A program made the position numbers and the translations under genes. DNA of 64,000 nt from Chiloscyllium plagiosum. Lineage: Eukaryota. Below, piece by piece: positions 4,350-55,590 of the stretch. Under the pieces are notes generated by a model, which was not told the origin of the DNA, made no database searches, and worked only from the letters and a program-made list of their open reading frames with translations. Where the stretch lies: positions 38,795,920 through 38,859,919 of the forward strand of contig NC_057730.1 in the NCBI RefSeq assembly GCF_004010195.1, read 5' to 3'. Position 1 is the stretch's first letter; every line of letters starts with the position of its first letter.

Positions 4350-4597
4350 CTGAAAATGTGTTGCTGGAAAAGCGCAGCAGGTCAGGCAGCATCCAAGGAA
4401 AAGGAGAATTGACGTTTTGGGCATGAGCCTTTCTTCAGGAATGGCTCCTGAAGAATCCTTCTTCTGGATTCCTGAAGAAGGGCTCATGCCCGAAATGTCG
4501 ATTCTCCTGCTCCTTGGATGCTGCCTGACCTGCTGCGCTTTTCCAGCAACACATTTTCAGCTCTGATCTCCAGCATCTGCAGTCCTCACTTTCTCCC
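4350..4597 (+). mobile_element. PLE family B fold-back insertion with hammerhead motif
   Basis: Long inverted repeat; TSD ctgacaagtactcag at 4335-4349 and 4598-4612; ctgaaga-a-gggctcatgccc-gaaatgtc core. Confidence 0.88.
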
Positions 4598-7500
4598 CTG
4601 ACAAGTACTCAGGTCCTGATGAACTTCAGCCTAGAGTCTTCAAAGAAATGGCTAATGAGATAACTGAGGCATTGGTTTTCATTTTCCAAAATTCCATAAA
4701 TTTGGGAACAATTTCATTAGAGTGGAAAATAATAACTGTAACTCTTCTATTCAAAAAATGATGGAGACAGAAAGCAGAAAATTGCATTCTGGTTAGCTTA
4801 GCATTTGTCATAGGGAAAATGTTCAAAGCTATTACTAAATATGTTATTAGTAAGGCATTTAGAAAAGTTCAAGGTAATTAGGGAGTCAAAATGGTTTTAT
4901 AAAATTAATTTAATGTTCAGCCAATTTATTGAAATTCTTTTTTAAACAATGTAACATGTGCTGTGAATAAATGAGAATGGTGGATGTTCTGCACTTTGCT
5001 TTCCAGAAGGCATTTGCTACATTGTCACATAAAGGTTTATTGCTGAAAATAAAAACTTGTGCTGAGGAGGTTAATCTATGGGGATGGATAGAAGGTTGGC
5101 TAGCTAAATGAAGAGAGAGAGTAACCATAAATTTATCATTTTCTGGTTAGCAGAATGTAATAATTGGTGTGCCACATTATCAATGGTGAGGCCGAAACGA
5201 TTTACAACTGACATAAATGACCTGGCTAAAGGGACAGAAGATATGGTTGTTAAATTTCCTGGTGTCACAAAAATAGGTAAGAAGGTAGGATCTGAAGACT
5301 ACTAAAGACTGCTATCAAGAGATATAAATAGACTGAGTGAGTGGGCAAAGATCTGCCAAATAGATTATACAATGGGGATATGTGAAATTATTCATCTTGG
5401 CAGGGAGATTTTAAAAAACTGTATTTTCTAAGAGATTGCAGAGCTCTGAGCTACAGAATGATCTGGGTGCCCTAGTGCATGAATTGCAAAAGGCTAGGAC
5501 ACAGGTGCACCAAATAGCTAGGAAAGCTAATAGAATGTTATTGTTTATGACAGTGGTGAAACCTCATCTAGATTACACTCTGAAGAATTGGCCTCCTTTA
5601 GATAAGGAAGGATTTAAATACAGTGGAAACAGTTCAGAGAAAGTTTCCTCGACGAATACTCGAATGGGTGGATTGTATTCTGAGGAAAGATTAAGTTGTA
5701 TTCGCTGGAGTTTAGAAGAGTCAGAGATGACTTGAATAATAAAACATATGAAATCCTGAAGGGACTTGATACTTGAGCCTAAGTGGAAAGAATGTTCTGC
5801 CTTCTGAGGGAATATCAAATTAAGAAATCATTTTCATAAATCAGGGGTTGCTCGTTTAATCCGGAGACACGGAGAATGTTTTCCTCATGGAGTCTTTGGA
5901 ATTTCCTTTCTCAAGATCTTTCATTGATCCAGGTGGGATTTATTATTCCAGTGAATGGTTGATTGGCATCCCACTGATGGTCAGCAATACAACAAAATCT
6001 GTTGCTCTGAGTTTTGAATATTTTTAATGACCTCGTGTGTTGCCCTTTATGAGCTTTCCGTTTCCGCCACCTCCATATACTTCATATTAAAATTCCAGAA
6101 GACCTGGTTTTTTTCTTTTTAAGGTTCTAGCTCTCTAGAGGAAATTAACACTGCTTGTGTTTCTTAACTCTACCAAATATGTTTGATAATCAATCTGCCT
6201 GCATTCTCATTCTGCGTCCTTAAGTTTCCAGGTATTTTCAACGTTTAGAAGTGAGTGAAACATCTGCTCTGTCTTTTTCAGAGATGGTACCCTGTTGGCT
6301 AGCCCACACCACTTGCTGCTTGTATTGTGTTAAATTATATCTATTGTCTTGTTCACATTCCCATTCATTAGTACAGCATCACTTTCTGAACTGAACATCA
6401 TTGAGGATCGTGCGTTTTATGGGCAGGTTCAGTAGTTATGTGATCATGCATTAAAATGAACATTCCCACTGTGAAAATATTTTCATCTGCGATTGTAAAG
6501 AAGATTTCTAAAAAGCAATTCCAATATAGATATGATAGGCTGGAGGTTCTCCATTTACAATGGAAAATTCTACGATAGAGATGAGCATAGATAGTTGCTG
6601 ATTAGACCAGGAGGCAAGCTGCCGATGAATTATGCAAGAGAGGCAGATGGAAATCAATCATGTATATTGTCCAAATGATTATTTCAGACATATTCATCAA
6701 CATGAATTCTGTTTAAAAAGAAACAAAGGTTTACAATTTCCTATTATATGACATGTGGCTCAGAGTTTGTCATTAACAGCAAACTTAATCAGTGTTGCAT
6801 ATATATTTATAAAAGTATGAGTTCATCTGCTGGCGTTTATCTGTCTGGATTTATTACCAAACCGATTTGCCCCAAACAAAATGACATTAGACCTTCTGCT
6901 TGAACCACAACAGTCTATAGGGTGATGGTACTCTTAAGTAGAGAGTCCCAAGGATTCAACGCAGTGGACACTAAGGAAATGATGATGCATCTAAATGTGG
7001 TAGTGCCTGACTTCAAAGGAAATTTAAAGATTATAATGATCCTGTGCACATTATTTAATTGGCCTTTGAAACATTTCTGTCAAGCATTTGAAAATGGATG
7101 GAGAATTGCTCTACATATCTGAAATGCTCTACATATCAGACGCACTCTATTTCCCCAGCCTGTGCATTTCAGTTGAATTCAGCATGTCTACTAAGTTACC
7201 AGTTACAACCAGTCAATATTAAGTCAGGCTCCAACTATTTTTTGGATTTTAAGAAATAGATGTTCGTTCACGTGCAATTGAGCTTGCAATTTCCCATTGA
7301 AGGTTTGACCACACATATTTGGAGGGTTGTACACATGTACTTGGCCTCTTTAATAGTATGACCACTCAATCTGTTGTCCTCCTATTTGCAGAATGGCAAT
7401 AATAGTTCAATTGCATTCCAATTAGCTATGAATTGTGGGCAAAGCAATAGAACTGAACATCACCTTTGCTTTCAATGTGTCAGCCAGTGTGTGATTGCCT

Positions 7501-7859
7501 TTCCATCCTGTTGTGAGTAATGAAGTTGATGCATTGCCTTATTGGATGTGACAGGCCCAGTACATAAAGATTAGTTGTGCTGTAATTAAATGTGCTGTAG
7601 CCAGCAGAATGTTTGCTGATATTACTTCATGCAGAAGTAGCGATGGTGGCAACTGTGATTGTGTTGCTTTTCCCCAGTTTGGCCTTCAGAGACAAAGCAG
7701 CATAATCCATGAAATGTGTTGCTGCTCAACCTGCTGCGAGAAAGATGAAAAATAAAATCTATAATTATGTTTTACCTTGCATGCTCCGTCATAGGACAAC
7801 TTACATTTCAGGGAGTCTCAAGGTTTGTCATATTTACAGGTAGTTTCTCTAAGGTCCCA

Positions 7860-8110
7860 TCTACCTTCTCAGGTGAAGGTAAAGCATACTATTCAACTAT
7901 TCCAACGAAGACAGGAGCTTTTCCTGGTCCAATGTTTATCTCTCAAATATTATCATTATCATATTGTTGTTTATAACAGCTTTGTTTGCTCAAATTGGCT
8001 TGTGCATTTTGTACTTTTCAGTAGCCAGAACACTTCAAAAGTGTTTCAATTGCTCCAAAGTGCTTTGGGACTAGCTGAAGATGCTCAAAGGGCTACCTAA
8101 TGGAAGCATT
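7860..8110 (+). mobile_element. Deu-domain SINE (SacSINE/AmnSINE-like), decayed
   Basis: actattccaacgaagacaggag...cctggtccaatgtttatc...caaattggct...aaagtgctttgggac; similar to copies at 16.0, 27.1, 36.3, 47.6 and 60.4 kb. Confidence 0.55.
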
Positions 8111-9023
8111 TCTCTGTATTCCTTTCTTTCTTCCAATGTGATTGACAGTGAGGGAGAGAGTGGGTTGGACATTCATGTCAATTACAGTATGATAAAAACT
8201 AGGATCAATTAACAAATCCCATTGAGAGCATTCACATAATTCAAAGCTCATGCAATGCACAATTTGTTTGACAAACGGCAGCAGAGGGAGAGAGGGACAT
8301 GATACAGCAAGTTAAAGAAAAAGTTGATCCTAAAGCCTGTCACTGATTGCCAGCTAGCCTGTCATCTGGCTTGCATTGATTTTTGTCAGAAATGGCCTTT
8401 TTTCGAGAAAGACTAAGAGAGGATGGTTAGCGAAGAACTTATTCCAGTAATATTGTCAGCATGTTAACTTGGACAGTGTAGTTATTTTAAAACAGCTTAA
8501 AAATAGATATTTTTTCCAGCAGAAAGTCTCACGTGTGAATCATGTCATAGTTAATTACCAGTGGACTCCAATTTTCAAGTCATGACACTAAGTAATCCAT
8601 AGAAATAGTTTCTCTCTGCCTTGAAGGGAATGCAACTCCACTTCCTTAAGCCCAGAAAATATAGGCAAGCTTGGAGAGACTCAAAGCTTGCAAGCTGCCA
8701 GTATTTAACCAAATAAAACCCTCACAATGTATCAATACAGAGCACAAGTTTCACACGCCTCTTCAGAGAGGATCAGGCTAACCATTCTGGCATGGGCCTT
8801 TAAGATCGTCTTTCAATGTTAAAACATTAATATTTTTGTGTTCTTCTGATTCTGACTTCTTGCTCAATCCTAATTTTCATTATCTTATCAAAAGTCGTTA
8901 TCTCGATATTAGACTCTTTGACCAAACCAAAGTTATCTGTCCCAAAGCCACCTGTCCCAAAATTATTTCATGTATTGTGATGTCAAATCTTGTCTGATAA
9001 ATGCCTTTGCATTTATATTAAAA

Positions 9024-9530
9024 AGTCATAGAGTCATAGAGATGTACAGCATGGAAACAGACCCTTCAGTTCAACTCATCCAGGCTGACCAGATATCGTA
9101 ACCTAATCTAATCCCATTTGTCAGCATTTGGCCCATATCCCAAGAAACCCTTCTTATTCATGTACTCATCCAGATGCCTTTTAAATGTTGTAATTGTACT
9201 TCCTCTGGTAGCTCATGCCATACATGCTCTATCCTCTGTGAAAAGATTTCCCCTGACGTCCCTTTTAAAACATTCACCTCTCACTTTGAACCGATATCCT
9301 CTAGTTTTGGACTCTCCCACTTTGGGAAAAGATCTTGGCTATTCACCCATGTCCCTCATGATTTTAGAAACTCCTCTAAGGTCATCCCTCAATCTACAAC
9401 GCTCCGGGAAAACAGCCCCATCCTAGTCAGTCTCTCCCTATAGTTGTAACCCTCCAACCCTGGCAACATGCTTGTAAATCTTTTCTGCACCCTTTCAAGT
9501 TTCACAACATCCTTCCGAAAGCAGAGATAG
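9024..9530 (-). mobile_element. CR1/HER1 LINE 3' end
   Basis: gtcatagagtcatagag is the reverse of the (ctctatga)n tail; the body is the reverse complement of 12650-13140. Confidence 0.9.
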
Positions 9531-10218
9531 CTGAACTGGGTCGAGTAGGTTCAGCCTGTTTTCAGTGGAATTTAACTTTATTGAAATATACAAGATTCTT
9601 TGCGGGCCTGACAGGGTAGACATCGAGACCTATAAATGCAGGAGCATAGTTCCTTGAAAGTGGATTTGCACATAGAAAGGGCGGTGAAGAAGGCATTTTT
9701 CATGCTTGTTTTCATTGGTTATAACATTGAGTATAGGAGTTAGGATACCAAGTTACAGCTATACAGAACATTGGTGAGGCCGCTTTTAAATACTGCATTC
9801 AATTCTGATCACCCTTCTATTGAAAGGATGTTAAACTTGAGAGCATGCAGAAAAGATTTACAAGGATGTTACCTGGACTGGAGGGCTCAATCTGTAGAGA
9901 GAGCTTGAATAGGCTGGAACTCTTTTCTCTGGAATGTCAGAAGTGAAGGGGTGACCTTATAAAGATTTATAAAACCATGAGAGGCATGGATAGGGTAAAT
10001 AGCCAAGGTCTTTTTCTCAGGGTAGAGGAATCCAAAACTAGAGGGTATAAGTTTAAGGTGAGAGGGGAAAGATTGAAAAAGGTGCTGAGGGGGTAACTTT
10101 TTCACTCAGAGAGATGTGCATGCATGGAATGAGCTACAAATGCAGTTTAATGTGGATAAATGTGTGGTTATCCACTTTGGTGGCAAGAACAGGAAGGCAG
10201 ATTACTACCAAAATGGAG

Positions 10219-10419
10219 AAAGTGAGGTCTGCAGATGCTGGAGATCAGAGATGGAAATGTGTTGCTGGAAAAGCGAAGCAGGTCAGGCAGCATCTAGGGA
10301 ACAGGAGAATCGACGTTTCGGGCGTTAGTCCTGAAGAAGGGCTAATGCCCGAAACGTCGATTCTCCTGTTCCCTAGATGCTGCCTGACCTGCTGCGCTTT
10401 TCCAGCAACACATTTCCAT
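10219..10419. mobile_element. PLE family B fold-back insertion
   Basis: Inverted arms of ~80 bp; TSD tactaccaaaatggag / tactacctaaatggag (1 mismatch). Confidence 0.9.
10327..10362 (+). ncRNA. Minimal type I hammerhead ribozyme motif (family B)
   Basis: agtc-CUGAAGA-a-GGGC-uaau-GCCC-GAA-ACGU-C^-gauu: core intact, 4-bp stem II, palindromic ACGU stem III, short stem I; activity untested. Confidence 0.7.
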
Positions 10420-11259
10420 CTACTACCTAAATGGAGTCAAGTTAGGTAAAGGGGCAGTACAACTAGATCTAGGTGTTCTTGTACATCAGTCAATGAAAGC
10501 AAGCATGCAGGTACAGCAGGCAGTGAAGAAAACTAATAGAATGCTGACCTTCATAACAAGAGGCATTGAATATAGAAGCAAAGAGGTCCTTCTGCAGCTG
10601 TACAGGGCCCTGATGAGACCGCACCTAGAATGTTGTGTGCAGTTTTGGTCTCCAAATTTGAGGAAAGAGATTCTGGCTATTGAGGAAGTGCAGCGTAGGT
10701 TCACGAGGTCAATTCCCGGAATGGCAGGACTATCTTACGCTGAAAGATTGGAGCGACTGGGCTTGTATCCACTTGAGTTTAGAAGGCTGAGAGGGGATCT
10801 GATTGAGATACAAGATTATTAAAGGATTGGACACTCTGGAGGCAGGAAGCATGTTTCCGCTGATGGGTGAGTTCCGAACCAGAGGACACAGTTTAAAAAT
10901 AAGGGGTAGGCCACTTAGAACAGAGTTGAGGAGAAACTTCTTCACCCAGAGAGTGGTGGGTGTATGGAATGCTCTGCCCCAAGAAAGAGTTGGATAGAGC
11001 TCTTAAGGATAGTGGAATCAAGGGTTATGGGAATAAGGCAGGAGCAGGATACTGATTGAGGATGATCAGCCATGATCATAATAAATGGTGGTGCAGGCTC
11101 AAAGGGCAGAATGGCCTACTCCTGCACCTATTGTCTATTGTCTATTGTCTACCAGAACAAATGTGGAGGCTGGTACAATTAAAACATTTAAAAGGCATCT
11201 GGTTGGATATATGAATAAGAAGGGTCTGGAGGGGTATGGGCCAAATGTTGGCAAATGTC

Positions 11260-13205
11260 CATATTACAGAGGGGGAAGTGCTGGTTGTCTTGAAACACAT
11301 AAAGATAGATAAATCCCCAAGACCCAATCAGGTGTACCCTAGAATGTTGTGAGAAGCTAGGAAAGCGATTGCTGGGCCCTTTGCTGAGATATTTGTATCA
11401 TCGACAGTTACAGGTGAGGTGCCGGCAGACTGGAGGTTGGCAAACGTGGTGCCACTGTTTAAGAAAGGTAAAGATAAGCCAGGAAACTATAGACCGGTAG
11501 TGAGCAAGTTGTTACAGGATGTACATGTATTTGGAAAGACAAGGACTGATTAGGGATAGTCAACATGGTTTTGTATGTGGGGAATCATGTCTCACAAACT
11601 TGATTGAGCTTTTTGAAGAAGTAACAAAGAGGATTGATGAGGGCAGAGTGGTGGACGTGATCTATATGGACTTTAGTAAGGCGTTCGATAAGGTTTCCCA
11701 TTGGAGACTGGTTAGCAAGATTAGATCTCATGGAATACAGGGAGAACTAGCCATTTGGATGCAGAACCACTCAAAGGTAGAAGGCGGAGGGTGGTAATGG
11801 AGGGTTGTTTTTCAGACTGGAGACCAGTGACCAGTGGAGTGCCACAAGGATCGGTGCTTGGTCCACTACTTTTTGTCATTTACATAAATGGTTTGGATGT
11901 GATCATAGGAAGTATAGTTAGTAAGTTTGCAGATGACCTCAAAATTGGAGGTGTAATGGACAGATTACATTGGGATCTTGATCAGATGGGCCAATGGGCT
12001 GAGGAGTGGCAGATGGAGTTTAATCTAGATAAATGTAAGATGTTGCATTTTGGGAAAACAAATCTTAGCAGGACTTATATACTCAATGGTCAGGTCCTAA
12101 AGAGTGTTGCTGAACAAAGAGACCTTGGAGTGCAGGTTCATAGCTCCTTGAAAGTGGAGTCACAGGTAGACAGGATAGTGAAGAAGGTGTTTGGTATGCT
12201 TTCCTTTATTGGTCAGAGNNNNNNNNNNNNNNNNNNNNNNNNNNNNNNNNNNNNNNNNNNNNNNNNNNNNNNNNNNNNNNNNNNNNNNNNNNNNNNNNNN
12301 NNNNNNNNNNNNNNNNNNNNNNNNNNNNNNNNNNNNNNNNNNNNNNNNNNNNNNNNNNNNNNNNNNNNNNNNNNNNNNNNNNNNNNNNNNNNNNNNNNNN
12401 NNNNNNNNNNNNNNNNNNNNNNNNNNNNNNNNNNNNNNNNNNNNNNNNNNNNNNNNNNNNNNNNNNNNNNNNNNNNNNNNNNNNNNNNNNNNNNNNNNNN
12501 NNNNNNNNNNNNNNNNNNNNNNNNNNNNNNNNNNNNNNNNNNNNNNNNNNNNNNNNNNNNNNNNNNNNNNNNNNNNNNNNNNNNNNCACTTTTGGAATAT
12601 TGCATTCAATTCTGGTCTCCTTCCTATCGGAAGGATGTTGTAAACTTGAAAGGGTTCAGAAAAGATTTATAAAGATGTTGCCAAGGTTGGAGGATTTGAA
12701 CTATAGGGAGAGGTGTAATAGGCTGGGGCTATTTTCCCTGGAGCATCAGAGGCTGAGGGGTGACCTTATAAAGGTTTATAAAATTATGAGGGGCATGGAT
12801 AGGATAAATAGACAAGGTCTTTTCCTTGGGGTGGGGGAGTGCAGAACTAGAGGGCTTAGGTTTAGGGTGAGAGGGGAAAGATATGAAAGAGACCTAAGGG
12901 GCAACCTTTTCACGCAGAGGGTGGTACGTGTATGGAATGAGCTGCCAGAGGAAGTGGTGGAGGCTGGTACAATTGCAATATTTAAAAAACATCTGGATGG
13001 GTATATGAATAGGAAGGATTTGGAGGGATATGGGCCGGTGCTGGCAGATGGGACTAGATTAGGTTGGGATATCTGGTTGGCATGGACGAGTTGGACTGAA
13101 GGGTCTGTTTCTGTGCTGTACATCTCTATGACTCTATGACTCAATGTCTGGATGTCTGAATTGGACTGAAGTGTCTGTTTCCATGTTGTATGACTCTATG
13201 ACTGT
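11260..13205 (+). mobile_element. CR1/HER1 LINE RT region and 3' end (contains an assembly gap)
   Basis: SQHGFV, YMDFSKAFDKV, SGVPQGSVLGPLLFVIYIN, SKFADDLK; (ctctatga)n tail. Confidence 0.95.
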
Positions 13206-19180: not shown

Positions 19181-19331
19181 CCAGTAGGATAAGCTCTGCT
19201 GTGGTTGGATCAGTTGGCCAAAGTTCCCAATCATCCTGTGTGGAGAATGTCGGTTAAAGAGCAGGTCCTTAGTAATGTGAACAGTTAGCATTTACATCAA
19301 ACACAAGTAACTGTTCAGCATAACTCTTGAT

Positions 19332-19506
19332 TTGGAGGTGCTGGTGTTGGACTGGGGTATTACCTTTATAAAGTTAAACATCCCACAATAAACCAGATTA
19401 TAGTCCAACAGGTTTATTTGGAAGCACTAGCTTTTGGAGTACTGCTCTTTCATCAGTTGGATGTCCACCTGATGAAGGAGCAGTGTTCCAAAAGCGTGAT
19501 TTTTAA
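19332..19506. mobile_element. PLE family A fold-back insertion (older)
   Basis: TSD cagcataactcttgat at 19316-19331 and 19507-19522; cttcatcag-like arm then cctgatgaaggagcagtgttccaaaagc. Confidence 0.85.
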
Positions 19507-20720: not shown

Positions 20721-20828
20721 TTGGTAGCTGCCATGAGCATTAATATTTTAATAGACTTGATTCCAACATCTAAATTTCACCAGCCAGTGCTTAAAAACTC
20801 TATTCCAACCAGAACAATGCACCATGAT

Positions 20829-21054
20829 GTACAAAGTTAAAAATCACATGACACCAGGTTATAATCCAACAGGTTTAATTGGAAACACTAACTTTTGGAG
20901 CGCTGCTCCTTCACTAGGTGGTTGTCACATCTACCTGATGAAGGAGCAGCGCTCCAAAAGCTAGTGCTTCCAATTAAACCTGTTGGACTATAACCTGGTG
21001 TTGTGTGATTTTTAACTTTGTACAGCCCAGTCCAACACCGGCATCTCCAAATCA
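20829..21054. mobile_element. PLE family A fold-back insertion
   Basis: ~90-bp inverted arms around a ~15-bp spacer; + arm cctgatgaaggagcagcgctccaaaagctagtg (G12 to A); no clear TSD. Confidence 0.88.
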
Positions 21055-21780: not shown

Positions 21781-22581
21781 TAAAAACAATGATTGCAGAT
21801 GCTGGAAACCAGAGTCTAGATTAGAGTGATGCTGGAAAAGCACAGCAGTTCAGGCAGCATCTGAGGAGCAGTAAAATCGACGTTTTGGGCAAAAGCCCTT
21901 CATCACGAATACAGGCAGAGAGCCTGAAGGGTGGAGAAATAAATGAGAGCAGGGTGGGGGTGGGGAGAAAGTAGCATAGAGTACAATAGGTGAGTGGGGG
22001 AGGGGATGANNNNNNNNNNNNNNNNNNNNNNNNNNNNNNNNNNNNNNNNNNNNNNNNNNNNNNNNNNNNNNNNNNNNNNNNNNNNNNNNNNNNNNNNNNN
22101 NNNNNNNNNNNNNNNNNNNNNNNNNNNNNNNNNNNNNNNNNNNNNNNNNNNNNNNNNNNNNNNNNNNNNNNNNNNNNNNNNNNNNNNNNNNNNNNNNNNN
22201 NNNNNNNNNNNNNNNNNNNNNNNNNNNNNNNNNNNNNNNNNNNNNNNNNNNNNNNNNNNNNNNNNNNNNNNNNNNNNNNNNNNNNNNNNNNNNNNNNNNN
22301 NNNNNNNNNNNNNNNNNNNNNNNNNNNNNNNNNNNNGTGGATAGGTGGAAAAGGAGATAGGCAGGTAGGACAGGTCATGGGGACAGTGCTGAGCTTGAAG
22401 TTTGGAATTGGGGTGAGGTGGGGGCAGGGGAAATGAGGAAACTGGTGAAGTCCATATTGATGCCCTGGGGTTGAAGTGTTCCGAGGTGGAAGATGAGGTG
22501 TTCTTCCTCCAGGCATCTGGTGGTGAGGGAGCGGCGGTGAAGGAGGCCCAGGACCTCCATGTCCTCGGCAGAGTGGGAGAG
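21781..22581 (-). mobile_element. 5'-truncated Penelope-like element, family B (GIY-YIG C-terminus, 3' UTR, terminal repeat)
   Basis: Minus ORF LEEEHLIFHLGTLQPQGINMDFTSF; terminus gtgatgaagggcttttgcccaaaacgtcga; TSD ggtgacccagg at 21770-21780 and 22582-22592; spans a gap. Confidence 0.88.
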
Positions 22582-23204
22582 GGTGACCCAGGGGCTGTTT
22601 GGAGATGGAGGACCAAGCCATATGGAGAGTGTCCTGCACAGACACGGTATCCTGCTTCTCAGCTGTATCTTTCACAGGCAGGCTGTGACTGAAAGGCAGG
22701 ATGGACGCACAGGAGACGTCTGGGGGATCCTGTGTATGTGGCACCAGCCTGTGTCCTTGAGAGGTAGGGGCAGCTGGAGTGAGATCAAGGTCTCTCATGC
22801 CCATGTCTCCTTGATGATCATTCCGAGTACCAGTGGCTGAAACAATGGAGTGGAGCTCTGTTGCATTTCTGGCTGCCACTGAGTGTTCTGCAGGACCTGT
22901 TTTTCCATGATATTCACAGAGACAGCCAGATACGAGCATGTCGAAGTCAACAGCATGGTTCTGATAACATTGGTGGATTCCTCCCATCTTAAGTCCATGT
23001 GATTTTAGTGCGTGTTTAGCCAACCTCCCATGCTGCTCTTGTTGCTGCCTGTGCATTTGCACAAAGTCATGAAGGGCTGACACCATGGGGACCTCCTCTC
23101 TGTGCTGAGGCTGAGGGATACCTGAGCTCCAGTGGTATTCTGCGTGCCAGAGTCCTCAGGCAGTGGTAGTGATGTGTTCACTAGACTATGCTCCTGCATC
23201 TAAT

Positions 23205-23465
23205 GAGCGATTGAGTGACAGAGGGATTGAGGGATTGAGGAACTGAGAGATTGAGTGCCTGAAAAACTGAGGGAATGCAGGACTGAGGGACTGAGTTACT
23301 AAGGGATTGAGTTACTAAGGGATTGAATGACTGAGGGACTGTTGGCCTGAGGGGCTGATGGAGTGGAGATTGATGGGCCGAGAGACTGAGAGACAGAGGG
23401 ACTGAGGGGCTGAGGGTTTGAGGAACTGAGGGATTGAGTGACTGTATAACTGAGGGACTGAGGAC
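23205..23465. repeat. Degenerate 8-bp tandem repeat (actgaggg)n
   Basis: Repeated ctgaggga/ttgaggga units. Confidence 0.85.
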
Positions 23466-23849
23466 TCTACACCAGCCTCAAGACATCCCCGTGCCACTAC
23501 TGCTCTCAGACCAACTCACACACCACTTCAACTGTTCAGCGTTTGACATTGGAGACCTGGGGCACCCATGACTTGATACTGCCCAGGCTGCTGTGTGTCC
23601 ACTTCATGTATCTGCACAGCACATATCTGATGGCCTTTAACTTCACATTTGAATGCTCACTCACTTAGAGGCTGCCAGCCACTGTGCCTTGCATTACTCA
23701 GCCAGCACAAAGGGATAGATGGGCTGCTTGTCTCAGTTGGGAGCACCCAGCAATCAAGGGGGTGGACATGTTGCTATGCAGCACTGAGCTACATGAACAT
23801 CCCACCTGCAGCATTGGCAGCAGATTATGTGGGAAACACACTGCAAATG

Positions 23850-27079: not shown

Positions 27080-27480
27080 CAGTCACTGAAGTACGATAGT
27101 TCCCATTGTAATGTAGGGAAGCATAGCAGACAATCTGGGCACAGCAATTTCCAGCAAGCAGCAATGCAATAAATACTAGGCCACCGCTGTTTGGGAGTGA
27201 GAAATATTTGCCCAGGACTCTCAGGAGAACTCCCCTGCTCTTTGGAATAGTGCCAAAAGGTCTTTTACAGGGACAAAAAAATCTGCAGATGCTGGAATCC
27301 AAAGCAGACAAGGAGGAGGCTGGAAGAACACAGCAAACCAGGCAGCATCAGGAGAAGCCTGATGTTTTGGATATAAGCCCTCTTCAGGAAGAAGGGTTAT
27401 ACCTGAAACATTGGAATTCTCCACTTCCAGCCTTCTGCCTGTCTACAAAAGATCTTTTACAGCTACCGAGAACCCTCACC
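27080..27480 (-). mobile_element. Deu-domain SINE interrupted by a family B-like insertion
   Basis: aaatatttgcccaggactctcaggagaactcccctgctctttggaatagtg is the reverse of the Deu core. Confidence 0.6.
27271..27445. mobile_element. Older PLE family B-like fold-back insertion
   Basis: ctgcagatgctggaatc...gcagcatc...cccttcttcag-like / gaagaagggttatacctgaaacatt; TSD caaaagRtcttttacag at 27254-27270 and 27446-27462. Confidence 0.75.
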
Positions 27481-28825
27481 TCCCATTACTTACTATTCAG
27501 TAACTACATTAGAATTACACAGATATATGGACATTCAATGAGAACAGATTTGCTTTGATTGTAACAGCCCCATAGTTTGCTGACGCATTCATAATCTAAA
27601 AAATACTGAGCTTAAATTGACTTTAAACTTCTGTAAATTACTTCACTGTACCATATGTTCCACACCATAGTACAGAGGAAACCAAATAGCTATTGGAAAA
27701 CTAGTTTGGATTGTGTCTTCATTCTGCTGGCATGTTATTGCCAAGGAATGTAAGTCAAACCAAGTCAGAACCGTCATTTGATAAGAGGATGTTGGTGACA
27801 CAAAATAACTTACTTTGCAACACAAAACCCAAGGCACTAACAGACTTGCCTTGTTCTTTCATTCAAGCTTGCATTGTCATTAAAGAAACATTATCCTGCA
27901 GCACAAGTCTCCTCCAACCTTACAAAAGGCTTCAAGAGTACTCTCTCCAGCTTAATGGACAATTGTCCAGCTGTCAAATGACAAAATAACCTGTCTTGCG
28001 TGTATTTTGATTACACCGTACTGTGGAGAGAATTAGGAAAAGACAAAAATAATAGCTAACTTCCAATAAACAACTTTTCAAGAAAGCGGATATTAATCAT
28101 AATGAAACAATAAATAATAGGTTAAAAGCAGTGAAATGTTTATCGTACAGCTATGAAACAGCAATCAGAGATTCTTCCATGAGTTATTTTTGATATACTT
28201 TCAACTTCAGAGAAGAGTCAAGGATACTAAGATTAAAATTAATAGAAAAGGTAAGAATTAATGATTCCCAAGGCTAGCGTATAAAGACCCTGCAGAATGC
28301 AGGATGATGACAAAGGAAGGTAAAGGCTTAAGAGAAATTTGAAAATAAAGCCAGAGGTGGAATTGATGTACTGAAAGTTGGGGATCCTGACATTCTCAAG
28401 TATCAAGCCTTGAACTCCAAGAGTGAAGATTGCAAATTTTAGTCCACACTACCAGTTCTCCGTAAAGCAACTTACATGTGTATCGCCCTTCAATGTAGCC
28501 CAAAGTCCCAACGTGTTCCACAATATAAGGTTTAACCCCCAAGCAGTTGAACTGAGTTCTCTGTTTTTGTGCTGTCGCTTTATGTAATTCCCAAGTAATC
28601 AACAGAAAAGTCTTTGTCAATAGATTACTGCACAAGGGATCACTGTCACCTGACCTCTGGCCTACTGCAATTCATTATTTGCCAGTGTCATGTCCAGCCA
28701 AATATCTTGCATATTAATGTCAATGAGAGCAACATTAGTCAGGGTCACAATGGATTGTACTCTGTCAGGTTACCACTGTGTAGCAAAGTTCAAAGTAAAC
28801 CAAGTTACCATCTGTATAACAAAAT

Positions 28826-29146
28826 GATTTGGAGATGCCGGTGTTGGACTGGGGTGTACAAAGTTAAAAATCACACAACACCAGGTTATAGTCCAACAGG
28901 TTTAATTGGAAGCACTAGCTTTCGGAGCGCTGCTCCTTCATCAGGTGGATGTGGAGGACACAATTGTAAGACACAAAATTTTCAATCTATCATATCAGTT
29001 ACATCGCACTGTAAACTTTTGCGATAAATTCTGTGTCTTACAATTGTGTTCTCCATAACCACCTGATGACGGTACGGCGCTCCGAAAGCTGGTGTGCTTC
29101 CAATTAAACCTGTTGGACTATAACCTGGTGTTGTATGATTTTTAAC
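28826..29146. mobile_element. PLE family A fold-back insertion
   Basis: ~115-bp inverted arms; TSD tataacaaaat at 28815-28825 and 29149-29159. Confidence 0.9.
28913..28947 (-). ncRNA. Minimal type I hammerhead ribozyme motif (family A, intact)
   Basis: Reverse complement: cac-CUGAUGA-a-GGAGC-agc-GCUCC-GAA-AGCU-A^-gug; activity untested. Confidence 0.7.
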
Positions 29147-29230
29147 AATATAACAAAATTAACCCTTCTAAATCCTTCTATTTTACTTCACAATACGATT
29201 ATAGATTAGTCTCTGTCATAGTTGAGTGGT

Positions 29231-30560
29231 GATTTGATGGTGCCCATGTTGGACTGGAGTGGACAAAGTTAAAAATCACACAACACCAGGTTATAGTCCA
29301 ACAGGTTTATTTGGAAGCACTAGCTTTCAAGTTGAACCGCCTCTTCATCAGGCGGTTGTAGAACAAGCCCATAAGACACAGAATTTATAGCAAAAAGGTT
29401 ACAGTGTAATGGATCTTTAATGATATATTAAACAAATTTATATTAAGACTTTCCTCTTTTAGAATGGAGTATGTTAGTTTTGGTTCTTTAATATGTAAAT
29501 CCCAGAACTCCTTTTAAGTTACCTTCTCAAGATAGCTTCAGCTTTTCGAACAATAGATGCCATTTCAGCCCAGACAATGCATTAAAGATGTGAGGTTAAA
29601 GTCTGTCTGTGTCCCAATGTTGCGTCAGATTGGTTCTATTTCTAAATGGAACTTACAGAATGTTACATGAATTAATGCAGTTTTTGAGCAAAATAAAATG
29701 TAATTCTGCAAATACAAATTTACCCCATAAACCTGTATGTGTGTATGTGCACAAGAGTGTGTGAGTGTGCATGAGTGTGCATGTAAGTGTGTGTGTGGGT
29801 GTCAGTGCATGTGAAACAGTGTGTGTGTATATGTGTGTAAGCTTGGTCAAGTATGTGTCTGAGTGTGATGGGGTATAAGCCTGTGAGAGGGTGCGTGCAT
29901 GAGTGTGAGTGTGGGGGCTGCATATGTGTGCTTATGAGAGAGAGCTTGTGTATAGGAGAGGGTCTGCGTGAGTATGTGAGTATGTTGAAGTGTGAGTGTA
30001 TGTACGTGCGTGTGTACATGTGTGTGTATACATGTGTGTGTATACATGTGTGTGTACGTGTGTGTGTACGTGTGTGTGTGTGTACGTGTGTGTGTGTACG
30101 TGTGTATGTATGCATTGCAGTGGAGTCACTTGTTATGTGACATGAACCCAAGGTCCTGGTTGAGGCCATCCCCATGGGTACCGAACTTGGCTATCAGCCT
30201 CTGCTCGAGGTCTGCCTTGGAGGACAGTCATCCGAAGGTCTGAGGTCGAATGTCCTGGACTGCTGAAGTGTTCCCTGACTGGAACAATGATGAATTGTTG
30301 CGCAGTGCCCAATTATCATTGCCATAGCCTCTGCTCGACCTTGCCAGTGTACCATGCCTCAGGGCATCCTTGTCTGCAGCATATGAGATAGACATTGGTT
30401 AAGTCACATGAGTACTCGCTGTGTACATGGTGGGAGGTCTCCCCATGTATAATGGCGGTGTCTGTGCCAACACTCTGGCATGTCTTGCAGTGGCTGCTGC
30501 AGAATTTGTGGGCAGAAATGGGTTGGCTTCCAACAAGGGTTTCCTTACTCTCCCAGTGTC
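29231..30560 (-). mobile_element. 5'-truncated Penelope-like element, family A (GIY-YIG domain, microsatellite-containing 3' UTR, terminal repeat)
   Basis: CSSHCKTC, NVYLICCRQGCPEAWYTG..EQRL, HFSSPGH..SDL, EQRLIAKFGTHGDGLNQDLGFMSH*; ends in the family A terminus. Confidence 0.9.
29734..30115. repeat. Compound (TG)n / (TGTA)n microsatellite within the PLE 3' UTR
   Basis: Directly visible. Confidence 0.9.
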
Positions 30561-30811
30561 CTTGTGGATAATGATCTGTCCATGCTGTATTTGCACCTGA
30601 TGCTGCAATGCTTATGCCCATAACATGAGAGCCATGTGGCAAACATGCCTGAAAGATTCTTACAGGTATTTATTACAGCTGCTGATATTTCTCCATGAAC
30701 ATCTGTGTCTGGGCCAATGTTAAGTCATTTTGTTATATACTGTTGCGTGCTTCCATCAGCATGTCATGCTTCAAGTTGTCCCAATTAAGATGGAGTCTGA
30801 TATATTGTTGC

Positions 30812-30900
30812 CGAGAGTGTGGCGTTGGAAGGACACAGCAGGTCAGGTAGCATCCGAGGAGCAGGAAGTAGATGTTTCGGCCCTCCTGATGAAAGGCTTG
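30812..30900. mobile_element. PLE family B terminal fragment with short fold-back
   Basis: gcaggtcaggtagcatccgaggagcagg...gatgtttcggcc then cctgatgaaaggc. Confidence 0.7.
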
Positions 30901-31940: not shown

Positions 31941-32034
31941 AAGAGTCAAGATCAGAGTGGTGCTGGAAATGCACAGCAGGTCAGGCAGCATCCGAGGAGC
32001 AGGAAAATCAATGTTTCGGGCAAAAGCCCTTCAT
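31941..32034 (-). mobile_element. PLE family B terminal fragment, ending within the hammerhead core
   Basis: gctggaaatgcacagcaggtcaggcagcatccgagg...atgtttcgggcaaaagcccttcat. Confidence 0.8.
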
Positions 32035-38756: not shown

Positions 38757-39362
38757 AGAGTCAAGAGTGTAGTGCTGGAAAAGCACAGCAGGTCAGGCAG
38801 CATCCGAGGAACAGGAGAATCGATGTTTTAGGACNNNNNNNNNAGGCTTGTGGGCCGGGGGGGCCGAGAGATAAATGGGAGGGGGGGGGGACCACGTGGG
38901 AAGGGAAATTGCAATGTTGGAAGAAGGAGGCCATCGGGGATTTTCTATGGTGGAATTGGTCATCCTAGGAACAGACCAGAGGAGGTGGAGGAATTGGGAA
39001 TAAGGGATGGTGTTTTAACAGGTGTAGAGTGGGAGGAGGTGTAGTCTAGGTAGCTGTGGGGGTTGGTGGGCTTGTAGTAGATGTCCATGTTGAGTCGGTT
39101 GCTGGAGATGGAGATGGAGAGGTCCTGGAAGGGGAGAGAGGTGACTGAGATGTTCCAGGTGAATTTGAGATCAGGGTGAAAGGCATTGGTGAAATTGATG
39201 AACTGTTCGACCTCCTTGTGGGAGCATGAGATAGCACTGATACAGCCATTGATGTAGCGGAGGAACAGGTGGAGAATGGTGCTAGTGTAGCTGCAGAAGG
39301 TGGACTGTTCCAAGGCAGGCATCGCTGGGGCCCATGCGTGCGTCCATGGCTTTCCCTTTGGT
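38757..39362 (-). mobile_element. Penelope-like RT fragment adjacent (across a gap) to a family B terminus
   Basis: LFLRYINGC (YIDD position), FHPDLKFTW, LPFQDLSI, DIYYKPTNPHSYLDYTSSH: the PLE RT/thumb signature. Confidence 0.88.
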
Positions 39363-39364
39363 CT

Positions 39365-50800: not shown

Positions 50801-51970
50801 GTATGCCAAGTGAATTCAGCCAATTCATTCATTCCAAGCGATACCAAGGAACAGCTCAGCTGGGCCTCTGGGGCCAGAATCTAGAAGCAGCAAAAGCACT
50901 GAAGACCTCTGCTGCAAGTTTGCAGTGCCCATAATCAAGCTTTTCTAGTATAACCACAGCACTGGCATGTGCCTAACAATGAGGACGAATCAAACCTGAC
51001 CAATTACTGCCCTATCATCAGCTAACTAATTGAAGGCAGTCATAACCACTGCTCTCAAGTAGTACTTGGAAAGGAATAGGTTGCTCTCTGATGTTCAGTA
51101 TGGCTTCCAGGTTTGGCCACTCAGCTCCTGACCTCATTACACTATTTGTCCAAACATGGACAACAGGGCTGAATTCTAGAGGATAGATAAGAGTGACAGT
51201 CTCTGACATCAGAGAGAGTGTGGTATCAATGAGCCCTCACAAACCTGCAGACAATGGGAATCCAGGGGAAATCTCCTTGCTGGTTGGAGTCATACCTAGC
51301 AGAAAGGAAGATAGCTGTAGTTATTGGCGGTCAATCAGCTCAGCTCCAAGGCATTACCATAGGAATTTTTCAAGGTAGTGTCCTAGGCTTAAACATCTGC
51401 AGCTGCTTCATCAATGACCTTCGATCCATCTTAAGGTCAGAAATGAGTTATTCTCTGATGACTGCACAATGTTCAGTAGCGTTCACAATTCCTCAGATAT
51501 TGAAATAGTCCATATCCAAATACAGCAAGACCTATGTAATATTGAGGCTTAAACAGTGGCAAGTAACGTTCATACCATTCCAGAGCCAAGCAATGACCTC
51601 CGCCAACAAGAGAGAATCTAATTATTGCACCTTTACATTCAATGGCATTACAGTTGCTGAATTCCCCAGTAACAACATCCTGGATGTTACCATTAACTAG
51701 AAACTGATCTGGTCCAGCCATGTGAATAAACAGTGGCTACAAGAGCAGATCATTAGGAATCTGACAATTAGTAACTCATCTTCTGACTTCCCAAAGACTG
51801 TCCACTATCTACAAGGCACAAGTCAGGAATGTTACTTCCTACCAAGTGGATGATTGCAGCTCTAACAATATTCAAGAAGTTTGATACCATCCAAAGACAA
51901 AGCAACTCACTAGACTGGTACCATATCCACTGCTTCCTTCTTTGCCTTCACCCCTAACACACAGTGGCTG

Positions 51971-52397
51971 TGATTTGGAGATACCGGTGTTGGACTGGGG
52001 TGTACAAAGTTAAAAATCACACAACTCCAGGTTATAGTCTAACAGGTTTAATTGGAAGCACTAGCTTTCGGAGCGACGCTCCTTCATCAGGTGGTTGTGG
52101 AGAACACAATTGTAAGGCACAGAATTTATAGCAAAAGTTTACAGTGTGATGTAACTGAAATTATAAATTGAAAAATACCTTTATTGTTGAGTCTTTCATC
52201 TGTTCGAGTACCATGATAGTTTCACTTCTTTCATGTGTATATCACAAAACTTTTTTTTTTAAAAGTTGCATTCTCAGGTTAACTGTAACAATTCGTGTTA
52301 GCTGGACAATATGTTGAAGGTGTTCTCTGTCTGTGCCATGATGTTTAGATTGATACTAATCTAAAAAGTGAGGTAACCGAGTTTACATGAATTCATG
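51971..52397 (-). mobile_element. PLE family A 3' end (terminal repeat plus UTR)
   Basis: Matches 29231-29680 and 28826-28980. Confidence 0.9.
52059..52093 (-). ncRNA. Minimal hammerhead motif (family A, intact)
   Basis: Reverse complement: cac-CUGAUGA-a-GGAGC-guc-GCUCC-GAA-AGCU-A^-gug; loop II differs from the 28.9 kb copy while the stem is retained. Confidence 0.7.
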
Positions 52398-53032
52398 TAC
52401 CGTCTGAAGGATGCACTGCAATAACTCACCAAGGCTCTTTGACAGCAACTTCCAAACTGTGACTTCTACCATCGAGAAGGAGAAGGGCTGCAGATGCATG
52501 AGAAGACTACCAGTTGCATGTTCCCCTCCAAGTCGCAGAATAAGCTGACTTGCAAATACATCACTGTTCTTTCACTAGGTCAAAATCCTGGAGCTCCCAT
52601 TCTGAAAAAATTGAGGATGTACCTATACCTCATGGATTGCAGTGATTCAAGAAAGAGGCTCCCAATCACCTTTAATAGGTCAATAAATATTGACCTAGCC
52701 AGCAAGGCTCATATCTGGTGAATGAATAAAAAATGTACCCTGTTCTATTTGCTGCACAATCTTCTGTGTGAAAGAGCCTCAGAATGTTGCATTGTTCAAC
52801 AAAATCACCTCTGATTTTTCTCCACTCCAGCTACCAACATTATCTCTGTTTCTTAACCTGATTGAAGTATAATGCCTCTGTCCTTATACCATAACAGACT
52901 TCAATTCTGTGCTCCAGAATTAGTTGGCTTTAACAACTATACACATTGCACTAAACTTTCTTTGCAGTAAATGTAACCCATATTCCATCTCGATCAGTTT
53001 ACCAAAGAACAATATATAGCATGCACCAGAAC

Positions 53033-55590
53033 ATGATTTGATTTGATTTATTATTGTCACATGAACCAAGATATAGTGAAAAGTATTATATTGCATGGTA
53101 ACCAGACAAATCGTACCCTACATAAGTACATTGGGGTAATAGAACAAAATGCGCAATATCATGTTACAGCTGCAGAGAGGGTGCAGGGAAAGATCAACTC
53201 TAATATACGAAAGGTCTATTCATAAGTCTGATAACACTGGTGAAGAAGCTGTTCTTAAATCTGTTGTACAGGTTTTCAAACTTTTGGATCTTCTGGAGAA
53301 AGTGAGGTCTGCAGATGCTGGAGATCAGAGCTGGAAATGTGTTGCTGCGAAAGCGCAGCAGGTCAGGCAGCATCCAGGGAACAGGAGAATCGACGTTTCG
53401 GGCATAAGCCCTTCTTCAGGGCTTATGCCCGAAACGTCGATTCTCCTGTTCCCTGGATGCTGCCTGACCTGCTGCGCTTTCCCAGCAACACATTTCCAGT
53501 TTTGGATCTTCTGCCCAATGGAAGAGGGTGGAAGACAGCATAACCGGGGTGGGGGAGACTTTGATGATGTTGGCTGTTTTTCCAAGGCAATGGGAAGTGT
53601 AGACTGAGTCAATGGAAGGAAGTCTGGTTTTCATGATAAACTGGGTTGCATTAACAACTCTAATTTCTTGTCATCCTGGGTACAGCAGTTGCCATACCAA
53701 GCTGTGATGCATCTGGATAGGATATTTTCTATTGAGCATTTATAAAAATTAGTAAGAATAATTGTGGGCATGTCGAATTTCCTTAACCTTCTGAAGAACT
53801 AGGGGCATTGGTGTGCTTTCTTGCGTGTAGTGTTGAGATGTATGGAACAGGACAGATTGTTGCTGATATCTACTCCGGGGAACTTGAAGCTGTCTACCTC
53901 CACCTCAGCATCATTGGTACAGACAGGGGCGGATTCCCCACTCTGTTTCCTGAAGTTAATGACCAGCTCATCATGTTGCTGACACTAAGGGAGAGATTGC
54001 TGTCTTTACGCCATGTCACTAAGCTGTGTTCTGTCTCTTCGTTGTTTGAAATCCAACCCACTACGGTGGTGACATCAGCAAATATATAAATGAAGTTAGA
54101 GCTCAATTTGGCCATAGAGTCACGTGTGCATAAGGGGTATAGAAAGGGACTGAGTATGCAGTTTGCAGGACATTGGTCTTGCGGATTACTATGGACAAGG
54201 TGTTGTTACCTATTTTTACTGATTTCGGTCTGTAGGTCAGGAAGTCAAGGATCCAGTTGCATTGTGGGGAGCAGAGTCCTAGGTCTCAGAATTTAGAGAT
54301 GTTTTGTTGGAATTATGGTGTTGAACATGGAGCTAAGTTCAATAAATAGGAGTCTAACAGGTATGTCCTTGTTATCCAGAAGTTCCAGGGATGATTGTAG
54401 GGTCAGGGAGGTGGCAACTGCTTTGACCTGTCGTGATGGGAGACAAATTGGAGCCGATCAAGGTAGTCGGGGAGGGTGGAGTTGATAAGTGCCATTACTA
54501 TCCTGTTGGAGTACTTCAAAATGATGGATGTTAGAGCTGCCAGGCAGTCGTCATTAAGGCATATTGCCTGATCTTTCTTTGGCACCAGGATGACGGTGGT
54601 CTTCTTGAAGCAGGTGGGAACCTCCCATCGTATAAAGGGGAGGTTAAAGATGTCTGTAAATACTCCTACCAGCTTGTCCTTGCAGGATCTGAGTGCACAG
54701 CAGGAGACTCCATCAGGGCCAGTTGTTTTCCATAGGTTCGCTGTCAAGAAGGCCGACCTGACATCTCCCCAGTGGTTACTGTGGGTACAGGTGCACCCAA
54801 AGCTGTTGGTGCAGGTGACATCATTTCAATGACCTTCTATTCAAAATAAGCAGAGGATGGATCGAGCTCATTGGGGAGGGATGCATTATTGTCAGCGATT
54901 CTACTCGACTTCGCTTTGTATCCATTATATAATGTGAGCTTTGCTACAGTCGACGTGTGCTCGTGTGGTTAGTCAGGGAGTCTAGTTTAGTCTGGCATTG
55001 TCTCTTGGCATCCCTGGTGAATTTACGAAGATTACCTGTATAGGTCATGGTCACCCGACTTGAACACCTCAGACCTGGACTTCAGTAGGGAGTGCATTGT
55101 CTGGTTCATGTGTGGCTGTGTAGCAAGGATCCAGGGTATTTGGGCCAATGGTGGGAAAGGAGACATGTTGGTGGTAACTTGGTAGCACACGCTTGAGGTT
55201 GGTCTGATTGAAGTCTCTGGCTACAATGAACAAAACCTCAGGATATTCAGTCTCAAGGCTATTTGTAGAGGAGTATATTTTATCAAGTGCACTCTTCACT
55301 TCCACATGAGGTGGGAATGTAAACTGCTGTCAGGAAAGCATAAGTAAACTCCCATGGCAGGTAGTGGGGCCAGCACCTCACTGTTAGACATTCAAGGGTC
55401 TGGGGCAGCAGTAACTAACTGAGGTCATCATTGTCCGAGCACCAAGAGGTGTCGGTCAGATGGCCAACTACCCCTGCCCTTTGCCTTGATCAAGGACACC
55501 GAGCCAACATTTAGTGAATTGAGAAGCCCTTAGATTGGACGGCACAATCAGGTTACGCAGGAGTGAGTCATGTCTCTGTTAAACAAAAGA
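53033..55590 (-). mobile_element. Rex1/Babar-like LINE, decayed
   Basis: GPDGVS..ALRSC..KLVGVFTDIFNL...PTCFKKTTVILVPKK...CLND...ALTS; FADVTTVVG.ISNNEET; ARDFNQTNLK; (caaat)n 3' tail at ~53033-53050. Confidence 0.88.
53296..53499. mobile_element. PLE family B fold-back insertion (young, near-perfect hairpin)
   Basis: ~82-bp near-identical inverted arms; exact TSD ttttggatcttctg at 53282-53295 and 53500-53513; intact hammerhead core on the minus strand at 53390-53420. Confidence 0.93.

What the first reader, a model, noticed from the sequence alone, without database searches (positions are those of the whole stretch)
4350..53499. Hammerhead-bearing fold-back mini-elements (family B) that behave like a discrete mobile unit
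Seen: ~175-250 bp insertions at 4350-4597, 10219-10419 and 53296-53499, plus an older one at 27271-27445. Each is two inverted copies of the same terminus, flanked by its own 14-17 bp TSD. The three younger copies contain CUGAAGA-a-GGGC(N4)GCCC-GAAAYGUC (degenerate in the older copy). The same terminus caps GIY-YIG and RT remnants at 21.8 and 38.8 kb. Established: PLE pseudo-LTRs carry minimal hammerheads and often insert with an inverted partial pseudo-LTR. Inference: these are either a non-autonomous, retrozyme-like ribozyme-hairpin family mobilised by a PLE, or a strongly favoured abortive insertion product. Either way a transcript would form an ~80-bp dsRNA stem.
Basis: partly seen in the sequence, partly recalled or inferred. 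Interest (0 to 1): 0.8.

Follow-up and report, generated by a model that had tools for sequence, protein, structure and literature searches.

The report
Hairpin stubs from Penelope twin priming
These small hairpin-shaped inserts are real and very common, but they are not a self-copying element: they are rebuilt each time a Penelope-like jumping gene lands, most likely because both cut DNA strands start copying its RNA at two fixed sites and the two copies are stitched together.

Summary
The four fold-backs, their 14-17-bp TSDs and the minimal hammerhead motif are confirmed. They are the hammerhead-bearing terminus of a Neptune-type Penelope-like element (PLE), with 60,377 exact arm cores genome-wide. 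They are not a discrete mobile unit. There are 43 junction types in 49 sampled copies, variants are mirrored in both arms of a copy, and one junction occurs in both polarities and several haplotypes. Outer ends fall at two sites about 36 nt apart, and 29 of 34 two-arm copies carry one of each. In 25 of 49 neither arm contains the other, and target preference is two-fold symmetric. Best reading: both nicks prime reverse transcription at the two PLE start sites, the cDNAs mostly stop just upstream of the hammerhead, and they are joined in place. This rivals the published self-priming idea. Against it: one complex junction is shared by two loci. RNA reads show fold-back junctions but no cleavage step or editing excess. 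This scan earlier noted de novo formation on other DNA of this genome. Known architecture; the mechanistic clue is the value.

The parts
4350..4597 (+). Fold-back 1: tail-less inverted arm 4350-4443, 24-nt patchwork filler 4444-4467, hammerhead arm with tail 4468-4597
   Evidence: junction unique genome-wide
4335..4349 (.). TSD of fold-back 1, left copy (right copy 4598-4612), 15 nt exact
4472..4499 (+). Minimal type I hammerhead core; predicted cut after 4499. A second, core-mutated motif lies on the minus strand at 4438-4411
   Evidence: features as in PMC4209133
10219..10420 (+). Fold-back 2: tail-bearing arm 10219-10330 stops short of the hammerhead start; tail-less arm 10331-10420 holds the whole core (10331-10358). 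Neither arm contains the other
10203..10218 (.). TSD of fold-back 2, left copy (right copy 10421-10436), 16 nt with 1 mismatch
53296..53499 (-). Fold-back 3: tail-bearing arm 53296-53419 holds the whole core (53419-53392); tail-less arm 53420-53499. Same junction type as fold-back 2 with the tail on the other arm
53282..53295 (.). TSD of fold-back 3, left copy (right copy 53500-53513), 14 nt exact
27271..27445 (-). Older fold-back of a sister family (67-73% identity), degenerate core 27387-27361, part of the tail-less arm missing; TSD 27254-27270/27446-27462
21781..22581 (-). 5'-truncated PLE of a sister family: endonuclease C-terminus, 3' UTR (327-nt N gap), hammerhead terminus with tail; 11-nt flanking direct repeat 21770-21780/22582-22592
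38758..39359 (-). PLE remnant: RT piece joined to a tail-less terminus; 12-nt flanking direct repeat with 1 mismatch
31950..32032 (-). Solo one-arm terminus of a sister family
30810..30899 (-). Older solo one-arm terminus

Best explanation
Each fold-back is made anew at insertion by a Neptune-type PLE ribonucleoprotein. Positions below count from the predicted hammerhead cut (0 = first base after GUC). (1) The endonuclease makes a staggered, two-fold symmetric cut about 15 nt wide (inferred from TSDs and target profile). (2) Both 3' ends prime reverse transcription on element RNA from one source, one at about +61 and the other at about +97, the two start sites that bound the PLE tail (ends shown; priming inferred by analogy to the in vitro Poseidon data). 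(3) Both cDNAs run toward the 5' end and most stop at about -32, 4 nt before the hammerhead core (shown); this is probably the RNA 5' end of transcripts starting in the upstream pseudo-LTR, otherwise a structural stop (inferred). (4) The two cDNA 3' ends are joined in place by short microhomology or filler (junction anatomy shown; enzyme unknown), giving TSD-inverted arm-sense arm-TSD. If only one nick extends, a one-arm copy results. A few microhomologies near the stop are reused, so junctions recur without common descent. The product is mostly a dead end whose hammerhead is locked in its own stem.
For: Junction diversity 43 types in 49. Arms mirror markers: +57 28 T/T, 11 C/C, 1 discordant of 40; +14 28/5/1 of 34. 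The 53296 junction has the tail on the truncated arm in 22 and on the full arm in 10 of 40, 8 unresolved, across several haplotypes with private mirrored variants. Outer ends: 46 of 49 inverted arms at +57..+67, 92 of 93 tail arms at +94..+105; spacing 33-39 nt in 85 of 113. One tail plus one short end in 29 of 34 two-arm copies sampled without regard to tail; 29 of 32 classifiable against 50%, p = 2.6e-6. Tail-less arm reaches at least 5 nt further in 25 of 49, tail arm in 10. Arms sharing almost no sequence: L252, L255, L267, L047. Junction fillers copied from flanking host DNA: 34 nt in L035, 67 nt in L099. Target profile outside the TSD symmetric, r = 0.83, control -0.44. One-arm copies use both ends, short 22 and tail 9 of 32. 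Poseidon protein extends both strands, starts at two sites bounding the tail, is a predicted dimer and does not need hammerhead cleavage (PMC11167929).
Against: Fold-back followed by trimming of one tail can also give non-nested arms. L271 and L272 share a complex junction found at only these two loci, 98% identical over 222 nt with unrelated flanks, so a finished fold-back can be copied. A few copies have discordant arms (L096, L084, L173). In tandem templates (L277, L287) the two arms cannot both have primed 36 nt apart and ended at one RNA 5' end. RNA reads show no place where many molecules begin, and the cap-derived G hint at -33 is weak. Target-RNA microhomology is only slightly above controls.
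Confidence: 0.65

Rival explanations
1. De novo formation by self-priming: one cDNA (or an antisense RNA, as proposed by Arkhipova et al. 2013) folds back at a short palindrome near the hammerhead and copies itself; the endonuclease later trims the tail from one end.
For: Mirrored private variants fit self-copying directly. 27 of 49 junctions have overlap between the arms, and the 53296 junction reads as a 4-bp stem with a 5-nt loop. Published interpretation (PMC3846280); tail ascribed to endonuclease resolution (PMC8557442).
Against: Simple snap-back needs one arm nested in the other; 25 of 49 are not nested in the required way, and L252, L255, L267, L047 have almost non-overlapping arms whose tail arm ends near the second start site. 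Flank-derived fillers at the centre (L035, L099) show joining at the target. One-arm copies with TSDs use both ends with no fold-back.
Confidence: 0.22
2. A discrete non-autonomous, retrozyme-like palindrome: master hairpin copies are transcribed and retrotransposed in trans as a unit.
For: 318 exact copies of one junction; 29 of the 30 best hits to the 53296 copy share it (selected by similarity, L027 with a 1-nt deletion counted). L271/L272 share a complex junction. Fold-back junction seen in 9 poly(A) reads.
Against: 43 junction types in 49; the shared junction spans both polarities and several haplotypes; variants are mirrored, not inherited asymmetrically; no shared upstream flank seen on inspection. 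A true master-derived tandem lineage in the same family (40 junction matches) looks different and still gains varied inverted arms. The hammerhead is sequestered in the stem.
Confidence: 0.05
3. Two separate RNPs or two RNAs from the same active locus each prime one nick independently; the fixed one-tail/one-short pattern comes from enzyme geometry, not from one RNA molecule.
For: Occasional discordant arms (L096, L084, L173); tandem templates L277 and L287 where the arms end at the same position of different units.
Against: Near-complete concordance across subfamilies (1 of 40 discordant at +57) needs strong cis preference; arms that stop at the second start site suggest collision on one RNA.
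Confidence: 0.08

Closest known systems
EN+ PLE insertions with inverted pseudo-LTR and 30-40-bp tail (Arkhipova et al. 2013, PMC3846280; Craig et al. 2021, PMC8557442)
   Same: Head-to-head inverted terminus, tail usually on one end only, TSD around the whole unit, partial tandems, variable 5' truncation.
   Different: Here about half of sampled copies are two-armed and most consist of the terminus alone, in tens of thousands of copies. Arm nesting and end pairing argue for two primed cDNAs rather than the self-priming proposed there.
Poseidon element of Anolis, in vitro (Frangieh et al. 2024, PMC11167929)
   Same: Two internal RT start sites bounding the tail, both strands cut and extended, hammerhead cleavage dispensable.
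   Different: That element is Penelope/Poseidon clade, prefers AT-rich ATT targets and starts its ORF in stem II. The family here has the Neptune-type linker, a G-rich preference 1-3 nt outside the TSD, and its long ORF appears to start about 35 nt past the tail. The parts I read do not explain inverted repeats.
Minimal hammerheads of metazoan PLEs (Cervera and de la Pena 2014, PMC4209133)
   Same: Core boxes, extra base before helix II, no loop III with palindromic 15.2-16.2, mostly solo motifs; that paper also notes pairs on opposite strands 100-700 bp apart.
   Different: Helix II is 4 bp and helix I is weak in the main subfamily (U-U mismatch); activity untested here.
Non-LTR retrozymes (PMC7229834; bioRxiv 10.64898/2026.07.22.740005)
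   Same: Short, non-coding, hammerhead-bearing, PLE-derived, long TSDs.
   Different: Retrozymes are head-to-tail tandems with two or more same-strand hammerheads yielding circRNA; these are head-to-head, with one usable motif per strand buried in a stem.
Twin priming of mammalian L1 (recalled, not read)
   Same: Both target nicks prime on one RNA; the cDNAs are joined by microhomology, giving a 5' inversion.
   Different: In L1 the second site is variable and the arms do not overlap; here both sites are fixed about 36 nt apart and the arms usually duplicate each other.

Membership tests
EN+ Penelope-like element, Neptune type (parent) | C-terminal GIY-YIG endonuclease upstream of the same terminus | tested here: met
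   PF01541 E = 1.1e-4 on L142; endonuclease, 3' UTR and terminus contiguous in L055, L154, L155
EN+ Penelope-like element, Neptune type (parent) | CX2-5CxxC linker before the endonuclease (Neptune/Nematis) and CCHH residues | tested here: met
   C-X4-C-XX-C linker and C, C, H, H read in L142, L154, L155; definition from PMC8557442
EN+ Penelope-like element, Neptune type (parent) | RT phylogeny placing it in Neptune rather than Nematis; intact single ORF | not tested
   Long copies are gapped in this assembly; only RT pieces seen; no tree built
EN+ Penelope-like element, Neptune type (parent) | Pseudo-LTR with optional 30-40-nt tail, direct or inverted | tested here: met
   End spacing 33-39 nt in 85 of 113; inverted and tandem forms
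Minimal type I hammerhead | Core boxes, extra base 9/10.1, helix II, palindromic 15.2-16.2 | tested here: met
   against PMC4209133; Rfam does not detect it
Minimal type I hammerhead | Helix I of 4-5 bp | tested here: inconclusive
   Main subfamily: 2 bp, a U-U mismatch, then 1-2 bp by inspection; not formed in the MFE fold. A sister subfamily has 4 bp
Minimal type I hammerhead | Self-cleavage | not testable with these tools
   No depth step at the cut in one RNA run; 10 of 117 arm ends at -4..+5, a weak and ambiguous hint
Non-LTR retrozyme | Head-to-tail tandem with at least two consecutive hammerhead units | tested here: not met
   Window copies are head-to-head; criterion from the bioRxiv preprint
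Non-LTR retrozyme | Expression as self-cleaved linear and circular RNA | tested here: inconclusive
   No such joint or end among the rows shown for 2,164 laid reads, about 2% of one poly(A) single-cell run; 8 joints were not shown; the library is unsuited to circles
Self-propagating non-autonomous element | Fixed internal structure inherited from master copies (junction tied to haplotype and polarity) | tested here: not met
   one exception pair L271/L272

The most novel reading that the evidence does not exclude
The PLE tail and the inverted pseudo-LTR are one phenomenon: a dimeric RT-endonuclease primes both strands of a symmetric ~15-nt cut at two fixed sites 36 nt apart on one RNA. Because initiation is internal, priming in the 5' pseudo-LTR yields ~130-nt run-off cDNAs, flooding the genome with some 25,000 or more hairpins that form 80-100-bp dsRNA when read through. 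This would replace the antisense self-priming model for PLE inverted repeats.
Probability: 0.5. Interest if true: 0.62.

Novelty: new member of a known kind. Interest (0 to 1): 0.4.

Why it matters
The architecture is known, so this is not a new class of mobile element. But how PLEs make inverted pseudo-LTRs and tails is still open in the papers read here, and this family supplies tens of thousands of young, minimal products whose ends, junctions and target sites can be counted. They point to a specific mechanism that the existing in vitro Poseidon system can test directly. It also warns annotators that such palindromes look like MITEs or retrozymes and that recurrent junctions do not prove descent. 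If transcribed within introns, they are a large potential source of dsRNA in this genome.

Tried and rejected
Rfam scan of the window: nothing. The 30 best genome hits to the 53296 copy looked like a uniform family (29 of 30 share the junction); rejected as selection by similarity once unbiased samples were drawn. Search for an intact parent ORF: the long open frames were N gaps. Pfam on the window's endonuclease and RT remnants and on the ORF N-terminus: no hit. Run search: no RNA holder listed on record. In the lay, run X20 gave 0 reads (no test); X19 tracked DNA copy number, with no start or end pile, no step at the predicted cut and no A>G excess (A>G 21, T>C 23, G>A 25, C>T 26 places); pooled paralogues and a poly(A) single-cell library make this a weak test. 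Cap-derived G at -33: 21 of 56, but about 9 are templated by the other arm, so only suggestive. Target-RNA microhomology at priming: barely above controls. An in-frame link between the stem-II ATG and the long ORF: rejected, the short frame stops after 26 codons and is out of frame. Splice acceptor as cause of the -32 stop: no shared upstream exon seen in one-arm copies. TSDs for the family-A fold-backs in the window: none found with the boundaries tried. No relatives' genomes are held, so no cross-species test. Look-up of earlier findings by sequence: nothing.
Full report
Observation. The 53296 copy folds into an 82-bp stem, z = -26; the 4350 and 10219 copies fold alike. The arms are unequal: one carries a ~36-nt extension. 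Below, position 0 is the first base after the hammerhead GUC; the core starts at -28.

Parent element. The window lies in a 3.56-Gb genome, G000; I call it shark-like from recalled repeat content, untested. The same terminus ends long copies that carry a GIY-YIG endonuclease (PF01541) preceded by a C-X4-C-XX-C linker, which PMC8557442 gives for Neptune and Nematis PLEs. Past the tail the terminus runs into the start of the long ORF, so it is a pseudo-LTR. No ungapped ORF was found and no tree was built. The remnants at 21.8 and 38.8 kb belong to sister families.

Abundance. A 32-mer spanning the tail has 16,579 exact matches and a 37-mer in the arm core 60,377. The first 100 listed core matches collapse by hand count to 80 elements, and 34 of 66 inspected are two-armed, which gives roughly 25,000 fold-backs as a lower-bound estimate.

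Is the palindrome a unit? The 30 best hits to the 53296 copy nearly all share its junction (29 of 30), but they were picked by likeness. I therefore took 93 of the first 100 listed tail matches (L036 dropped as a duplicate of L035). The script called 49 two-armed with TSD, 20 one-armed with TSD (on inspection L061, L088 and L103 have a missed inverted arm, and L043, L071 and L104 are complex) and 24 without a TSD call. The 49 show 43 junction types; the commonest occur 4, 3 and 2 times. The 53296 junction has 318 exact matches and the 4350 junction one. In 44 two-arm copies (12 duplicate, complex or long-filler loci left out) the arms mirror subfamily markers: at +57 28 T/T, 11 C/C, 1 discordant; at +14 28, 5, 1 (Fisher p 5e-9 and 2e-5). 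In 40 of the 318 copies with the 53296 junction, the tail sits on the arm cut at -21 in 22, on the full arm in 10, and is unresolved in 8; several haplotypes occur and private changes are mirrored (L161, L165, L181, L184, L195). The window repeats this: 10219 and 53296 have the same junction type, opposite tail polarity and different mirrored haplotypes. One master palindrome cannot give that; the junction is re-made.

Internal control. A head-to-tail 224-nt derivative of a sister subfamily has 40 exact junction matches. In 22 loci inspected many share a multi-part layout, as expected for descent from a master, yet their inverted arms differ from copy to copy (L275, L276, L277, L283, L287, L288). 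So even a self-propagating template gains its inverted arm at insertion.

Counter-evidence. L271 and L272, 114 kb apart, share a complex junction found nowhere else, are 98% identical over 222 nt and have unrelated flanks. That is re-copying or gene conversion of a finished fold-back; it is rare in my samples but real. A few copies have discordant arms (L096, L084, L173).

How the fold-back forms. Outer ends are sharp: 46 of 49 inverted arms end at +57..+67 and 92 of 93 tail arms at +94..+105. In 113 two-arm sites (including the 30 best hits) the TSD is 14-16 nt in 91 and the two starts lie 33-39 nt apart in 85. In a sample not chosen for the tail, 29 of 34 two-arm copies have one tail end and one short end; 2 were called tail/tail (L221 a misread, L263 real), 1 short/short, 2 other; one-arm copies are short in 22 and tailed in 9 of 32. 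Against an even chance, 29 of 32 gives p = 2.6e-6. Inner ends pile just upstream of the core: 50 of 117 at -37..-27, 31 at -26..-14, 10 at -4..+5. The tail-less arm reaches at least 5 nt further in than the tail arm in 25 of 49, the reverse in 10. In those 25 each arm holds sequence the other lacks, so neither is a plain copy of the other. L252, L255, L267 and L047 have arms that barely overlap, the tail arm ending near the second start. Of 49 junctions 27 overlap, 7 are near-blunt and 15 have filler; in L035 and L099 the filler holds 34 and 67 nt from the flanking host DNA. Base preferences outside the TSD mirror each other across the site (r = 0.83; reversed control -0.44).

These facts fit two target-primed cDNAs, one from each nick, started at the two sites that bound the tail and joined at their 3' ends. 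Frangieh et al. (PMC11167929; main text read) show that a Poseidon protein cuts and extends both strands, starts at two internal sites bounding the tail, is a predicted dimer and needs no hammerhead cleavage. The joining step and the one-of-each pairing are my inference. The published reading of such junctions is self-priming on an antisense template, left open there (PMC3846280; passages and Discussion). A fold-back with later trimming of one tail is not strictly excluded, hence 0.22.

The stop at -32. Of 115 arms reading through it, 59 continue into the 3' UTR and 56 end there. The site resembles an initiator (recalled motif), and Drosophila Penelope has its promoter in the pseudo-LTR (PMC2377424; passages). 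An extra G at -33 is seen in 21 of 56, about 12 after removing templated cases: a weak hint of a cap. RNA reads show no start pile, and L277 and L287 fit a structural stop as well. This step is open.

Ribozyme and RNA. The motif meets the minimal-hammerhead description (PMC4209133; first half of the text read), which needs a same-strand partner and cleaves poorly. In a fold-back the antisense arm is transcribed first and pairs with the whole core, so cleavage in cis is unlikely. In about 2% of one poly(A) single-cell run, 2,164 reads lay on a one-arm copy; depth followed DNA copy number, 9 reads from 8 starts crossed a fold-back junction, and there was no step at the cut and no A>G excess. That is a weak test; a second run gave no reads.

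Known and new. Inverted termini with a one-sided tail are standard for PLEs (PMC8557442 and PMC8969392, passages). Retrozymes are tandem (PMC7229834, passages; bioRxiv 10.64898/2026.07.22.740005, part 1 of 5 and passages), a feature not met here. [quoted passage not shown] L1 twin priming is recalled. Earlier notes of this scan on other DNA of the same genome reached de novo formation and the 5' pile-up; I had both before looking, and they are not independent support.

Verdict. Real, abundant, known in kind. De novo formation about 0.95; twin priming 0.65; self-propagating hairpin 0.05. Interest 0.4, for the mechanistic handle.

Noticed in passing
L126, L130, L273-L292 (40 exact junction matches): A head-to-tail 224-nt unit (end of 3' UTR, hammerhead terminus, start of ORF) of a sister subfamily with a 4-bp helix I and an AATAAA; many loci share one composite layout. 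It has consecutive same-strand hammerheads and is the better retrozyme candidate in this family.
   Followed up: partly
window 20826-21054, 19328-19495, 28825-29146, 29230-29386, 51971-52127: A second PLE-like family with a different minimal hammerhead also forms fold-backs and seems to have a long and a short end about 35 nt apart; no TSD was found with the boundaries tried.
   Followed up: partly
L271 and L272: Two fold-backs 114 kb apart share a complex junction found nowhere else; one has tails on both ends and no TSD call. Possible rare re-mobilisation or gene conversion.
   Followed up: partly
L060, L099, L064, L070: Some arms end at or next to the predicted hammerhead cut (both arms in L060 and L099); could mark a minority of cleaved templates or a local palindrome used for joining.
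   Followed up: partly
L123, L128, L133, L134, L135, L137, L140: Short direct tandems in which a terminus plus a variable stretch of the ORF start is joined to a second terminus beginning at or a little upstream of -32: template jumps that rebuild pseudo-LTRs.
   Followed up: no
113 target sites: Symmetric target preference: G-rich and C-poor 2-3 nt outside each TSD edge, unlike the AT-rich motif reported for Poseidon.
   Followed up: partly
L141:862-1995 and L142: The ORF N-terminal region carries a Thr/Ala/Pro-rich stretch with short tandem repeats, at which the assembly breaks.
   Followed up: no
window 23191-23468 and 63772-63976: Degenerate 8-nt and 15-nt tandem repeats.
   Followed up: no
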